DNA of 64,000 nt from Eledone cirrhosa (lineage: Eukaryota): the NCBI GenBank assembly GCA_964016885.1, contig OZ024748.1:54002001-54066000 (forward strand). Direction: 5' to 3'. The notes under the pieces were generated by a model. That model ran no database searches, was not told the origin of the DNA, and saw only the letters and a program-made list of their open reading frames with translations. This document shows, piece by piece, positions 18,253 through 63,997 of this stretch. The position numbers were made by a program, and so were the translations under genes. Numbering within the stretch: position 1 is the stretch's first letter; every line of letters starts with the position of its first letter.

Positions 18253-18726
18253 TTTTGACTGCTGTTTCTTGTAAACAGTCATTCGTCTCATTCTGACGTC
18301 ACTAGCCCTGTTCTCCATGTGTGTTTATTATCTTAATTCTACACGAGGTGTAACTAGCCTGCTTTTAAATTCCCTTTTGGCATATTTTAGCTGTAAGTCT
18401 TAGTTATCGTGTTGAGCTCTACTGATGAACGATTCCAACCGTGACTAACCCCACTGAAAAGTTTCGTGAAATAGTCTTTTTAAGACTATATTTGTAGATT
18501 TTTCCAAATTGAAGGATAAGTATTTACCCTTAATTTTATTCTGAGTTAAGACTCTATTGGTTTTTTCCCTGGATTACACAAAATCTGTGGATTTCTGTCT
18601 TGACTTTTTTTGAATTGAGATTGAATTATTTTCCCATATCTTACGTTAAATATTTTCCATCTTGACGTAATAGTCACTTATATGTATGAATTACTGTTGC
18701 CTTCTTGCTCACATTAATTTCTCTAT

Positions 18727-18770: not shown

Positions 18771-19017
18771 TAAGTTGTATTATTGGTTGTGTCATACGGT
18801 CCAATAAACTTTTGTTAGCAATATTAAGTTCTCCACGCTTTTGTATATCTCCAATTCCATTTATGGGAACAGCTAGATGATGTAAAACTGAGTATTTGTA
18901 TCAAAATAAAGATCCGAAGGCATGGTATAAATTTCCAATAATTTTAATCACGACAGCAATATTATTGTCGTGATTAAAATGATTGGAAATGTATACCATG
19001 CCTTCGGATCTTTATTT

Positions 19018-19022
<5 letters not shown>
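18766..19022 (-). mobile_element. Hairpin-tail element (singleton)
   Basis: Hairpin 18899-19022 (~57-bp arms, 10-nt loop), tail 18766-18898, (TA)n flanks; GAAA-tgta-TA at 18986-18995. Confidence 0.85.
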
Positions 19023-23179: not shown

Positions 23180-23182
<3 letters not shown>

Positions 23183-23537
23183 CAGAAGGGATATTCAATT
23201 TGTTGGTAATTCAACAAATATAAATGTTTATAACTGATTCAGAGCACTCAACAGATATTCTGGAGTATAATATACAATGATATTAAATAAATGGAAACTA
23301 TATTTATAAAACCATATTTATTCTATTATATATATTTATGTATATTCTATTATATATATTTCAAGTTATCCAAGGATAACTTGAACCGTTAAGGTATATT
23401 CTCCTTGGTTATGTCAAAATTTATAAAACGCACTTCGTATTTTATCTGATGATAGCGTACCAAAATGTTGGTACCCTTGAAATATATATAATAGAATAAA
23501 TATGGTTTTATAAATATAGTTTCCATTTATTTAATAT

Positions 23538-23542
<5 letters not shown>
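23180..23542 (-). mobile_element. Hairpin-tail family D (hammerhead-bearing)
   Basis: Tail is the reverse complement of 33940-34023; arms caatgatattaaataaatggaaacta... / ...tagtttccatttatttaatatcattg; (TA)n flanks. Confidence 0.9.
23438..23498 (+). ncRNA. Type I hammerhead ribozyme (family D)
   Basis: tattttat-CTGATGA-tagcgtacc(aaaatgtt)ggtaccctt-GAAA-tatata-TA-atagaata; 8-bp stem I. Confidence 0.75.
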
Positions 23543-23607
<65 letters not shown>

Positions 23608-23930
23608 AATGGTAGCTATGATGCTTCCATAGGTGGTATGCCAGTTGAGCACTCTATGTTCTTACAGAGCAGAGTGTGATATAATATAAAACGAAAAATC
23701 AGTGATGCATCTGGACTCAGTTTATTGTGTGTTACAATTGTTTCGCTGGCAGATAGCTCGAGACACGATCATTGTATGGATCTGTCCGATTCTAGATCCG
23801 AAGAACCTGCAGATCTAGAATCGGACAGATCCATACAATGATCGTCTCTCGAGCTATCTGGCGGCGAAACAATTGTAACACACAATAAACTGAGTCCAGA
23901 TGCATCACTGATTTTTCGTTTTATATTATA
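23608..23930 (-). mobile_element. Hairpin-tail element with ~119-bp near-perfect arms
   Basis: Hairpin 23680-23930, 13-nt loop at 23799-23811; GAAA-caattg-TA at 23866-23877 and its mirror; tail 23608-23679. Confidence 0.92.
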
Positions 23931-33452: not shown

Positions 33453-33454
<2 letters not shown>

Positions 33455-33562
33455 CGAAGGAAATGTGGTAAGGAACCAGGTGGACCATAACGCACCAAAA
33501 TCCTCAATACTTAGGGTAGTAGAGTAGGTAGGAGCCCCGGGGTCCTACTCGGCCTACTTGTT

Positions 33563-33566
<4 letters not shown>
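33453..33566 (-). mobile_element. Hairpin-tail family C, collapsed hairpin
   Basis: Full tail aacgaaggaaatgtggtaaggaaccag..., residual taggagccccggggtccta; (TA)n flanks. Confidence 0.85.
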
Positions 33567-33612
<46 letters not shown>

Positions 33613-33615
<3 letters not shown>

Positions 33616-34023
33616 ATGATATTAATAAATGGAAACTATCTTTATAAAACCATATTTATTCTATTATATATATTTTAAGCGTACCAAAACTTTGGTACGC
33701 TCTCATCAGATAAAATACAAAATTTGTTTTATAAATAGTGACATACCCAAGAATCAGACCTTAAAGGTTCAGGTTAACAGAACCTGAACGGTTAAAGTCT
33801 GATTCCTTACTATTTATAAAAATAATTTTGTATTTTATCTGATGAGAGCGTACCAAAGTTTTCGTACCCTTGAAATATATATAATAGAATAAATATGGTT
33901 TTATAAATATAGTTTCCATTTATTAATATCATTGATATTATACTCCAGAAAACTTGTCGAGTGCTTCGAATCTGTTATAAATATATTTGTTGAATTACCA
34001 TCAAATTAAATATCTCTTCGCTT
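33613..34023 (+). mobile_element. Hairpin-tail family D, complete copy (~160-bp arms, hammerhead on each arm)
   Basis: Hairpin 33613-33937 centred on ggttcaggttaacagaacctgaac; tail to 34023; (TA)n flanks. Confidence 0.92.
33831..33891 (+). ncRNA. Type I hammerhead ribozyme (family D)
   Basis: tattttat-CTGATGA-gagcgtac(caaagttttc)gtaccctt-GAAA-tatata-TA-atagaata; the mirror copy at about 33657-33717 (-) has GAAA changed to AAAA. Confidence 0.8.
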
Positions 34024-34033
34024 ATATATATAT

Positions 34034-34192
34034 AATCAGAATGGAGGCGATAAAAACCAGTTAGACCATTACTCACCACATTACTCGATACTTGGTGTAG
34101 TAGAGTGGGTAATATTAAACATTCAGGACCCCATCGGCTGAAATCGGATCTAGCTTTTAACGGCCGGAGCTCGGGGTCATGAATTTTTCGTA
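34034..34192 (-). mobile_element. Hairpin-tail family C subfamily 2, diverged
   Basis: gtagtagagtgggtaata..attcaggacccc...gatctagct...acggccggagctc matches 49683-49866. Confidence 0.75.
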
Positions 34193-37515: not shown

Positions 37516-37707
37516 GTGGAACACTGGAAGGTAATATCCGTAGTGGTAGAGCACTCAGTCCAAGGGACGAGTTAGAAGTGGTTACACAACAGTTAGTTCA
37601 CCATACCGAGAACAATTGTTTCACCTTAGCGGATCCTCAGCTCGGATCCGCTAAGGTAAAACAAATGTTCTCGGTATGGTGAACTAACTGTTGTGTAACC
37701 ACTTCTA
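37512..37707 (-). mobile_element. Hairpin-tail element (singleton)
   Basis: Hairpin 37573-37707 (~64-bp arms, loop tcagctc), tail 37512-37572, (TA)n flanks; minus strand GAAA-caattg-TT at 37611-37622. Confidence 0.9.
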
Positions 37708-42087: not shown

Positions 42088-42595
42088 TTGGGGGAAGAAG
42101 CGAACATGAAATGGAATCAGCCATGCTGCCTAGCGGAAGGAAGAAGGAAATGGAAGAGGTGAATTAATGATACAACAACATTGTTAATGACGTGAGAGAT
42201 ATAAACCTCATTCTGGATCAGGAAATAAAGGTATGGAAAAATCCATCAGCATCTCGACCTATAAATAGACGTTGGCTGTTGGTCGAAGATGATACCAGAA
42301 TCATGCAAGGAGAATAATGCTACATCACTGTAGACGATGATTTAAACTTCAGCAAGGCAAGGCATAACATCATCAGCATGAAATACGTGTTGCTCCGATG
42401 AAGAAAAATGACTCTGATGAGAACTTGACTGATGAGACTCAACATCGTTGAAATCGCGGTATCAACAAGTCATATGTTCAATATAATTGTTTTATATGCA
42501 CCAACATTTCTTGTGGGTAATGGCTACAAATAGCCGGCTATGGGGAAGAGACGTATCTATACATGCCTGCGCGCTCGCTTGTTGGTCAAAATGTA
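42088..42595 (+). mobile_element. 5'-truncated Penelope-like element 3' end
   Basis: Starts after (TA)n; decayed MKWNQPCCLAEGRRKWKR...NIVNDV...W loosely resembles the PLE GIY-YIG C-terminus; contains a hammerhead. Confidence 0.55.
42425..42465 (+). ncRNA. Minimal type I hammerhead ribozyme
   Basis: ttga-CTGATGA-gac(tcaacatc)gtt-GAAA-tcgcgg-TA-tcaa; all core residues present, cgcg palindromic loop. Confidence 0.82.
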
Positions 42596-55021: not shown

Positions 55022-55291
55022 ATGTGTGTACGTATATATACACACATGTATAAATATAGATTTAGCAAGAATCGTATTTCGGCGGGACTATGTATATATA
55101 AACACATGCACATACTATATATATATATATATATTATACGCTTTCATTATATATATATATATATACGCTTTCATCCAGTGAATATCCAACCGATAAGGTA
55201 TGATTTTCATGGGTATGTCTCTATTTATACATATTTATACATATATATATATAAGACGATTTGTTAAGGCAACATTACGTTTATTACACTC

Positions 55292-56978: not shown

Positions 56979-57106
56979 GGAGAAAGTATGACCCCGACGG
57001 CAGAGATCAAGCCGTTTCGACGGCTATTTCTGGACTAAAGTACTGGACTAAGTATTGAGTACTCTAGTGCGTTATGGTCCATCTGGTTCCTTACCACAAC
57101 TCCTCC

Positions 57107-57108
<2 letters not shown>
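56978..57108 (+). mobile_element. Hairpin-tail family C deletion variant
   Basis: One arm + ctaaagtactggactaag junction + tail; (TA)n flanks. Confidence 0.9.
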
Positions 57109-57149
<41 letters not shown>

Positions 57150-57151
<2 letters not shown>

Positions 57152-57400
57152 GAGGTTATATTTAATTTGTTGGGATACAACAAGCAAAATATTTTTATAC
57201 TGATATAAAGCACTCAACAAATTATTGGAGTAAATATATTAACAAATGGAAACTATATATATAAAACCATATTTATTTCATTATACATATTTCAAGGGCC
57301 ACTAAGGCAAACTATGGTGCGCTTTCATCAGATAAAATATAATATAGGTTAGTTTTATAAATAAATATTGACATACCCTGAAAAAATGCAACCATTCTGG
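57150..57400 (-). mobile_element. Family D copy without a fold-back arm
   Basis: aaatggaaactata..tataaaaccatatttatt and tcatcagataaaata match 23290 and 33630. Confidence 0.8.
57274..57339 (-). ncRNA. Type I hammerhead ribozyme (family D, diverged)
   Basis: Minus strand: tattttat-CTGATGA-aagcgcacca...gtggccctt-GAAA-tatgta-TA-atgaaata. Confidence 0.65.
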
Positions 57401-57505
57401 TTGGAATCTCCTGGATTGTGGAGTTATTAGATTTATTGTTGGTTTATTATGCAAATTAGTGTCGGAAAGGTTTAAATAACAGTATATTTAAATTAAGCCG
57501 TTGAA

Positions 57506-57553
<48 letters not shown>

Positions 57554-57554
<1 letters not shown>

Positions 57555-57685
57555 ATGAAGGAGTTGTGGTAAGGAACCAGATGGACCATAACGCACCAGA
57601 GTACTCAATACTTAGTCCAGTACTTTAGTCCAGAAATAGCCGTCGAAACGGCTTGATCTCTGTCGTCGGGGTCATACTTTCTCCT
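57554..57685 (-). mobile_element. Hairpin-tail family C deletion variant (inverted twin of 56978-57108)
   Basis: Same private junction and gagatcaag substitution. Confidence 0.9.
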
Positions 57686-57704
57686 ATATATATATATATA
57701 CACA

Positions 57705-58310: not shown

Positions 58311-58790
58311 GTCTGTGTACGTATATTGTAATTTTTTGTGCAGCTGTTGTCGTTAGAATGTACGAATAACGTTTTATATTAATTACACGCGCATACATAT
58401 TGAAATATACACACATACATACATACATATACACATATATACACATTGAAATACACACACACACACACAAGACACAAATTAAACGTCAATCGCCGCATGT
58501 GTGTGTGTATGTCTGTCTGAGAGTGTATGTATATATCAGAACCCCACACTATGACAATTCATTATGACCCCCCTCCCCCCGAGGCTGACATTTTTTCCTA
58601 ATGTTCCCCTCATCTAATTCCTACATGTTTCATATCACTTTTTTTTCTTGGTTGTTCTAAGACTACAATATTCTCTCTCTCTCTCTCTGACCCCCGCCTC
58701 TTTATCTCGCCCTCTCTCTCTCGATATATATATATATATATATTCTATTAATTATATGTATATATTTGTGTGTATGCAAGTATATATATA

Positions 58791-58948
58791 AAGGAAAATG
58801 TTTGACCCCGACGGCAGAGCTCAAGCCGTTTCGACGGCTATTTCTGCCATCGGGGTCAAACATTTTCCTATTACCCACTCTACTACCCTAAGTATTGAGT
58901 ACTCTGGTGCGTTACGGTCCATCTGGTTCCTTACCACAACTCCGTTTT
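58791..58948 (+). mobile_element. Hairpin-tail family C, partial right-arm deletion
   Basis: Junction at tctg microhomology; both arms carry the private atgtttgacc/ggtcaaacat variant. Confidence 0.9.
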
Positions 58949-63930: not shown

Positions 63931-63997
63931 TATTTTATCTGATGAGGTCGTACTGTTGAACTTAACTCAGTACCTCTGAAATATTTATAATAAAATA
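63931..63997 (+). ncRNA. Type I hammerhead ribozyme (family D, element cut by the window end)
   Basis: tattttat-CTGATGA-ggtcgtactg(ttgaacttaact)cagtacctct-GAAA-tattta-TA-ataaaata; perfect 8-bp stem I. Confidence 0.75.

What the first reader, a model, noticed from the sequence alone, without database searches (positions are those of the whole stretch)
33613..34023. Family D: opposed hammerheads on the two arms of one hairpin, with a helix III made of the TA repeat itself
The right arm has an intact CTGATGA...GAAA-TATATA-TA hammerhead with an 8-bp stem I; the left arm has its mirror on the minus strand (GAAA changed to AAAA). The helix III segment ATATATAT is self-complementary, as expected for PLE hammerheads that cleave as dimers, and is also identical to the genomic target repeat. 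Four diverged copies (23438, 33831, 57274, 63931) retain the core while the helix II loop varies. Inference: the cleavage site and the (TA)n target could be mechanistically linked, for example by pairing in trans with UA-repeat RNA or by priming.
Basis: partly seen in the sequence, partly recalled or inferred. Interest (0 to 1): 0.75.

Follow-up and report, generated by a model that had tools for sequence, protein, structure and literature searches.

The report
Folded-back end of a Penelope retrotransposon
This hairpin is the stump of a known kind of animal jumping gene whose two back-to-back ends each carry a predicted self-cutting RNA motif; copies join the TA repeats they land in at two other fixed points, not at the predicted cut, so the motif's TA-like stem is likely not what aims the insertion.

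Summary
The sequence features are real. 33614-34023 is a head-to-head pair of 5'-truncated pseudo-LTRs of a Hydra-clade Penelope-like retroelement (PLE) inserted in (TA)n; the coding parent was found in the genome and a pLTR 30-mer has 39,404 exact matches. The type I hammerhead is conserved across subfamilies (core 3.1% substitutions against 37.4% in the flank; compensatory helix II pairs). Inverted pLTRs, a one-sided tail, palindromic helix III and (TA)n targeting are all published. The proposed link between cut site and target fails its tests: 19 copies end at the cut into TA against 7,497 that read through; 91 of 100 sampled copies end 51 or 140 nt past the cut; 39 of 73 copies have ATATGTAT; none of 25 published Hydra families has a TA helix III. 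The opposed motifs lie on different strands, cannot dimerise in cis, and are fully paired in a read-through RNA. Cleavage is untested. The scan noted this system before on other DNA of this genome.

The parts
33565..33613 (.). (TA)n target repeat, left side
   Evidence: 24.5 perfect copies
33614..33775 (-). Left arm: inverted, 5'-truncated pLTR that stops at the short end (no tail)
   Evidence: 95.4% identical to the right arm over 131 aligned nt
33657..33717 (-). Left-arm hammerhead; G12 changed to A, predicted dead; the family C.C in helix II closed by a C-to-G change
   Evidence: G-to-A at this position in 2 of 73 unselected copies
33776..33780 (.). Spacer at the head-to-head junction
   Evidence: sequence, alignment of the arms
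33781..33934 (+). Right arm: 5'-truncated pLTR up to the short-end site
33831..33891 (+). Right-arm type I hammerhead: stem I 33831-38/33884-91, core 33839-45 and 33872-75, helix II 33846-71, palindromic helix III 33875-82, predicted cut after 33883
   Evidence: activity not tested
33935..34023 (+). 89-nt tail between the two preferred ends; in the parent it lies just upstream of the ORF
34024..34034 (.). Short (AT)n, right side of the target
23181..23542 (.). Second foldback of the family: long arm on the left (lacks the 5' half of the hammerhead), short arm on the right with hammerhead 23438-23498
57274..57339 (-). Hammerhead of a diverged subfamily, helix III ATATGTAT, in a copy with tail flanked by (TA)n
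63931..63997 (+). Hammerhead of a further subfamily, helix III ATATTTAT here (ATATGTAT in its relative L034)

Best explanation
The feature is a 5'-truncated insertion of a Penelope-like retroelement with Hydra-clade motifs, made of two head-to-head copies of the element's terminal repeat, likely written by reverse transcription of an uncut RNA from two fixed internal start sites into a nicked (TA)n repeat. Shown: the arms are pLTR copies of a coding parent; one ends 51 nt and the other 140 nt past the predicted cut; both run across the cut; both carry the same subfamily alleles. From known PLE biology: the GIY-YIG endonuclease with its zinc-finger-like linker is the proposed TA-targeting part, and the two ends match the two internal start sites reported for Poseidon_Ac. 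Inferred: both target strands prime on the same RNA, one at each start site, and the two cDNAs are joined head to head. The hammerhead is under selection in source elements and likely cuts weakly as a dimer of direct-repeat pLTRs, or with protein help; helix III is a dimer palindrome that happens to be AT-only in an arm that is 74.5% AT. In this foldback neither motif is likely to act: they are on opposite strands, each is fully paired to the other arm in a read-through RNA, and the left one has lost G12.
For: Parent: L132 reads inverted long arm, pLTR, ORF (RWR, DKT, YRDD, SNHP, CxCX5C, IYxC..YIG), long 3' UTR, hammerhead, short end; the CxxC/CxH end of the endonuclease is read in L131 and L133; these are the Hydra marks of PMC8557442 section 11. 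Ends: 54 short and 37 long of 100 copies picked on the 5' core, 1 near the cut. Genome-wide 7,497 read-through against 19 ending in TA at the cut, 0.25%; a non-catalytic TATA site gives 40 of 39,404, 0.10%. None of 73 copies picked downstream of the cut starts at the cut; one starts 7 nt before it (read). 35 of 36 foldbacks in 116 loci pair one long with one short arm; arms agree in 163 of 187 comparisons at 7 polymorphic sites, 103.6 expected. Core 25 of 794 substitutions, flank 491 of 1313; no core column has a second common allele. Helix II pairs swap A-U/G-C (19/19, 23/12, 30/10 rows). The only common helix III change is A to G at the dyad, which keeps self-pairing. Core P(unpaired) rounds to 0.00 in both read-through RNAs. 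In Poseidon_Ac, hammerhead mutants still insert (PMC11167929).
Against: No cleavage assay and no RNA data. No RT tree was built; Pfam found no RT or GIY-YIG family in 5 parent fragments or the related ORF, and the model (pLDDT 54.9) gave only weak RT matches, best E 0.042, so the clade rests on motifs read by eye. The unit is about 3.7 kb, longer than the usual Hydra size of under 3 kb. Agreement between arms could also come from later gene conversion, and snap-back copying followed by central deletion is not excluded. One search also showed 2 long-long and 2 short-short records among 46 with a partner. ATATGTAT still pairs with UA repeats through G.U, a second unrelated family also has ATATATAT, and ends at the cut are about 2.5 times the control rate.
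Confidence: 0.86

Rival explanations
1. The cut RNA ends in UAUAUAUA, which anneals to the nicked (TA)n target and sets the start of reverse transcription.
For: The 5' product would end in four UA units. 19 genomic copies do end there in a TA run and none resumes the element afterwards; 0.25% against 0.10% at a control site.
Against: 7,497 copies read through; 91 of 100 end at two other sites; one short-end pattern alone has 1,953 matches. The 19 can equally be deletions between the internal TA and the flanking TA, and the control has a shorter TA overlap. 0 of 25 published Hydra families have a TA helix III although 24 are listed as (TA)n targeting.
Confidence: 0.03
2. Helix III senses TA/UA repeats: UA-repeat RNA or the nicked target strand pairs with it and blocks dimer formation, keeping the template uncut.
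For: Predicted duplex with (UA)8 is -4.1 kcal/mol against -3.2 (ATATATAT) and -2.2 (ATATGTAT) for self-pairing. Both common alleles can pair with UA. Templates were uncut at this site or re-joined.
Against: The energies are small and close. Only the dyad A varies, as self-pairing predicts, whereas pairing with UA would tolerate G at any inner A (inference). Related TA-inserting families use palindromes that cannot pair with UA.
Confidence: 0.05
3. The two opposed hammerheads are a functional pair, as in a viroid-like or retrozyme RNA with ribozymes in both polarities.
For: Both strands carry a hammerhead-shaped motif and the RNA would be a long rod; 46 of 100 sampled copies have an inverted partner within 700 nt.
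Against: The arms are recent duplicates of one pLTR; the junction differs from locus to locus; each core is fully paired; the left core is mutated; the same layout is recorded for Penelope-13_HM as an attached inverted copy.
Confidence: 0.02
4. Same element, but the second arm is made by snap-back of the first cDNA on itself and endonuclease resolution, not by a second priming on the RNA.
For: Arms share alleles, and many pairs end within about 20 nt of each other at the 5' side; self-priming was proposed from junction palindromes in PMC3846280.
Against: In L132, L133 and several small foldbacks each arm holds sequence the other lacks (tail on one, more 5' sequence on the other), which needs a second event such as a central deletion.
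Confidence: 0.3

Closest known systems
Hydra clade of C-terminal EN+ Penelope-like elements (Craig et al. 2021, PMC8557442; passages, section 11 and supplement parts read)
   Same: RT then GIY-YIG; DKT; CxCX5C linker; CxxC and CxH in the endonuclease; (TA)n insertion; 3' hammerhead, often with U before GAA; inverted 5'-truncated copy giving hammerheads on both strands (Penelope-13_HM).
   Different: Unit about 3.7 kb with a 3' UTR over 1 kb; RWR for RWK; 89-nt tail against the 30-40 bp described; helix III a loop-less 8-nt palindrome and helix II long with a fixed C.C, where the listed Hydra motifs have 3-4 bp of helix III around a 1-3 nt loop.
Minimal and palindromic type I hammerheads of metazoan PLEs (Cervera and de la Pena 2014, PMC4209133; parts 1-2 of 4 read)
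   Same: Type I, long helix II, palindromic helix III, predicted dimer; pairs on opposite strands 100-700 bp apart are reported there.
   Different: That consensus has G10.1-C11.1 and a shorter helix I (4-5 bp in the Schistosoma motifs); here the closing pair is A-U in 51 of 64 and stem I has 8 bp.
Poseidon_Ac in vitro (Frangieh et al. 2024, PMC11167929; parts 1-2 of 4 read)
   Same: Two internal start sites bound the tail; both target strands are cut and extended; uncut RNA is the main template; the hammerhead lies upstream of the start sites.
   Different: Other clade; AT-rich rather than strict (TA)n target; there the ORF starts inside the hammerhead, here about 190 nt after the cut.
Inverted pLTR with one-sided tail in Adineta vaga Penelope (PMC3846280; passages read)
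   Same: Head-to-head inverted pLTR, tail on one side only, palindromes at the junction.
   Different: 31-bp tail and visible target-site duplications there; here the TA repeat hides any duplication.
Animal non-LTR retrozymes (bioRxiv 10.64898/2026.07.22.740005, part 1 of 5 read; PMC7229834, search listing only)
   Same: Small non-coding repeats with type I hammerheads, related to pLTRs.
   Different: Retrozymes are direct tandem repeats; this is an inverted pair of variable length cut from a coding element.

Membership tests
EN+ Penelope-like element | Single ORF with RT followed by GIY-YIG endonuclease on the same strand as the pLTR | tested here: met
   Motifs in order in L131-L134, all broken by stops or frameshifts; Pfam did not recognise them; structure search gave only weak RT matches
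EN+ Penelope-like element | pLTRs in direct and inverted arrangement, tail on one end | tested here: met
   L132 layout; 35 of 36 foldbacks long plus short
EN+ Penelope-like element | Hammerhead in the pLTR, sense strand | tested here: met
Hydra clade | CxCX5C linker in place of CX2-5CxxC | tested here: met
   L132 frame against section 11
Hydra clade | DKT in place of DKG | tested here: met
   L132 and L134; L131 has DET
Hydra clade | RWK motif | tested here: inconclusive
   RWR in L131 and L132
Hydra clade | No CCHH; CxxC and CxH around the conserved E and N | tested here: met
   read by eye in L131, L133, L134
Hydra clade | (TA)n insertion | tested here: met
Hydra clade | Generally under 3 kb (a tendency, not a strict criterion) | tested here: not met
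   unit about 3.7 kb in L132
Hydra clade | Groups with Hydra RTs in a tree | not tested
   reference proteins were seen only as supplement text
Neptune clade | CX2-5CxxC linker and CCHH motif | tested here: not met
   my first reading, dropped
Type I hammerhead ribozyme | Core CUGANGA, GAAA, UH around three helices | tested here: met
   right arm; left arm fails at G12
Type I hammerhead ribozyme | Covarying helices I and II | tested here: met
   90.1% of 756 cells paired, 39-54% when slid; 54 cells changed on both sides against 21.8 shuffled; the two measures that count pairs or types did not beat the shuffles (50/500, 495/500), and rows are related
Type I hammerhead ribozyme | G10.1-C11.1 closing pair | tested here: not met
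   A-U 51, G.U 2, G-C 0 of 64; U before GAA is common in published Hydra motifs
Type I hammerhead ribozyme | Self-cleavage | not testable with these tools
   needs an assay
Non-LTR retrozyme | Direct tandem monomers each with a hammerhead | tested here: not met
   inverted pair with a coding parent

The most novel reading that the evidence does not exclude
Helix III doubles as a TA-repeat sensor: UA-repeat RNA or the nicked (TA)n strand out-competes the dimer partner and keeps the template uncut during insertion, and a minor route (about 1 copy in 400) inserts from the cut RNA by annealing its UA end to the target. A ribozyme would then be switched by the element's own target repeat.
Probability: 0.05. 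Interest if true: 0.65.

Novelty: new member of a known kind. Interest (0 to 1): 0.2.

Why it matters
The structure itself is ordinary PLE anatomy. What is useful is the test: with thousands of copies, the junction counts show that insertions were templated by RNA that was uncut at the 3' hammerhead, or cut and re-joined, which agrees in vivo with the single in vitro study and narrows the open question of what PLE hammerheads do. The long-plus-short rule and the shared alleles of the arms give a testable model for how inverted pLTRs form.

Tried and rejected
Neptune assignment: dropped after reading the Hydra definition. The RT next to L011 as parent: it belongs to another family with its own 3' UTR and hammerhead (39% identical to the real parent over 349 aa). 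CpG decay as the cause of TGAAA, and decay as the cause of the helix II C.C: both are family-wide (C.C 61 of 64). Microsatellite expansion of helix III as the source of the 19 cut-site ends: none resumes the element. Systematic difference between long and short arms: only one site leans that way (C in 7 long, 1 short of 29). Microhomology to TA at the short end: 47 of 92 read-through copies match 3 nt or more against 36 of 223 background positions, but a fixed cut phase with a slightly variable end gives the same picture, so inconclusive. The core count was circular (rows chosen on the core) and was replaced. One search placed the short end at 33942; the alignment overran into TA-like letters and the last specific base is 33934. 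The ACTAGT and ACGT families were left out as controls because their TA runs may be internal or follow (CA)n. No RNA holder listed. PDB sequence search gave 0 hits; homologue search gave 6 proteins without informative names. Lunse et al. on PLE hammerhead dimers was not held and is known only through the review PMC6765202 (passages). Five paper searches listed no title or abstract start proposing a helix III-target link; that is not proof of absence.

Full report
Observation. The stretch 33614-33934 is an inverted repeat (arms 33614-33775 and 33781-33934) inside a TA repeat, and the right arm runs on for 89 nt to 34023. As RNA it folds at -194.8 kcal/mol, z -26.7. The right arm's helix II closes with G.U, holds a C.C at the fourth pair and has one more broken pair; its hammerhead fold is far from the best predicted fold (-1.0 against -13.0 kcal/mol).

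What it is. The family is large: 5,878 exact matches to a 26-mer over the 5' core, 7,497 to a 28-mer across the cut and 39,404 to a 30-mer behind the cut; the backwards controls gave 0. Following the sequence upstream led to long copies. L132 reads: inverted arm with tail, pLTR, ORF, a 3' UTR of over 1 kb, hammerhead, short end. The ORF of L131-L134 has RWR, DKT, YRDD, SNHP, a CxCX5C linker, a GIY-YIG-type IYxC..YIG and CxxC/CxH, the marks given for the Hydra clade in PMC8557442 section 11. All four long copies are broken. Pfam, the PDB sequence search and the fold search gave no firm hit, and no tree was built, so the clade rests on motifs. The tail is the stretch just before the ORF. The host was not determined.

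Is the hammerhead more than chance? Yes. In 73 copies chosen only by the 30-mer behind the cut, the 11 core columns differ in 25 of 794 letters and none has a common second allele; the 5' flank differs in 491 of 1313 with 16 of 18 columns polymorphic; N7 varies freely. On 42 rows, 90.1% of cells pair against 39-54% when slid, with A-U/G-C swaps at three helix II pairs; two of the five measures did not beat the shuffles and the rows are related. C.C at pair 4 is kept in 61 of 64 parsed copies (9 of 73 did not parse: deletions, truncations or core changes), and the closing pair is A-U in 51. In helix III only the dyad A varies (G 39, A 33, gap 1 of 73). That keeps self-pairing and fits a dimer better than a monomer loop, where all four loop letters should drift (inference).

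Is the cut linked to the target? The prediction is that copies join (TA)n at the cut. Genome-wide, 19 do and 7,497 read through. A TATA site with no catalytic role gives 40 of 39,404, so the excess is about 2.5-fold at a site with a longer TA overlap. Of 100 copies picked on the 5' core, 54 end at the short site, 37 at the long site, 1 near the cut and 8 elsewhere; the sites lie 51 and 140 nt past the cut. None of the 73 downstream-picked copies begins at the cut (read). Copies with ATATGTAT sit in TA as often as those with ATATATAT (26 of 30 and 28 of 30), though G.U would still allow pairing. Stronger controls: a related RT family in this genome has a non-TA helix III and meets a TA run within 94 nt in 10 of 13 copies (background 28% within 100 nt), and in the supplement of PMC8557442 none of 25 Hydra families has a TA-repeat helix III while 24 are listed as (TA)n targeting. 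A pure UA strand cannot supply stem I in register (4 of 8 pairs, none of the first three).

Why two opposed motifs? 46 of 100 copies have an inverted partner within 700 nt. In 116 loci, 35 of 36 tight foldbacks pair a long with a short arm, and the arms agree in 163 of 187 comparisons at polymorphic sites (103.6 expected; 29 pairs). Either arm can reach further 5', and in L132 and L133 a tail-bearing arm of about 300 nt faces a tail-less arm of 2.7-3.8 kb. The simplest reading is two primings on one RNA, one from each target strand and start site; snap-back with later deletion, or gene conversion, remains possible. The two motifs are on opposite strands, so no transcript carries both in sense, and in either read-through RNA the core is fully paired.

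Comparison. Inverted 5'-truncated copies, a one-sided tail and microsatellite targeting are described in PMC8557442 and PMC3846280; palindromic helix III, dimers and opposite-strand pairs in PMC4209133; two internal start sites and insertion without cleavage in PMC11167929. Differences here are the long tail, the loop-less palindrome, the 8-bp stem I and the fixed C.C. Earlier scan notes on other pieces of this genome describe the same system; one led me from Neptune to Hydra, which I then checked.

Verdict. A new member of a known kind; the interesting inference is not supported as a main mechanism. Cleavage and expression are untested. Interest 0.2.

Noticed in passing
window 33454-33564, 56979-57108, 57555-57686, 58788-58935; diverged at 34035-34180: A second short repeat family nested in the same TA runs, often with an internal hairpin; at 56979-57686 two inverted copies flank the family D copy.
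   Followed up: no
window 55165-55240: Short family-D-like fragment between TA runs that stops inside helix II on the minus strand; a similar 12-nt piece lies in L019.
   Followed up: no
window 18903-19018, 23700-23930, 37579-37701: Further near-perfect foldbacks next to TA runs, from other families.
   Followed up: no
window 23320-23365: A direct duplication of about 24 nt covering helix III and stem I in the left arm of the second foldback.
   Followed up: no
L067:418, L100, L115, L014: An unrelated hammerhead family with a different stem I shares both the ATATATAT helix III and the C.C at helix II pair 4.
   Followed up: partly
L061-L070: A younger family of the same RT type with long open frames (up to 823 aa in L062) and a hammerhead with a 4-bp helix III around a palindromic loop; its stem I covaries between subfamilies; better material for an in vitro assay.
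   Followed up: partly
L034:2500-3260: The ORF of that other family is joined directly to the 3' UTR and hammerhead of the 63931 subfamily: a chimera or a nested insertion.
   Followed up: no
L218, L237, L228: Short deletions that remove GAAA and part of helix III, apparently between short repeats; L218 and L237 share one deletion, so a core-less variant may have been copied.
   Followed up: no
L132:4250-5314: Asparagine-rich stretches between thumb and linker in the parent ORF, like the N-rich inserts described in PMC3846280.
   Followed up: no
window 42414-42470 and 18422-18470: Other CTGATGA...GAAA strings without a matching stem I by my descriptor; probably chance or decayed.
   Followed up: partly
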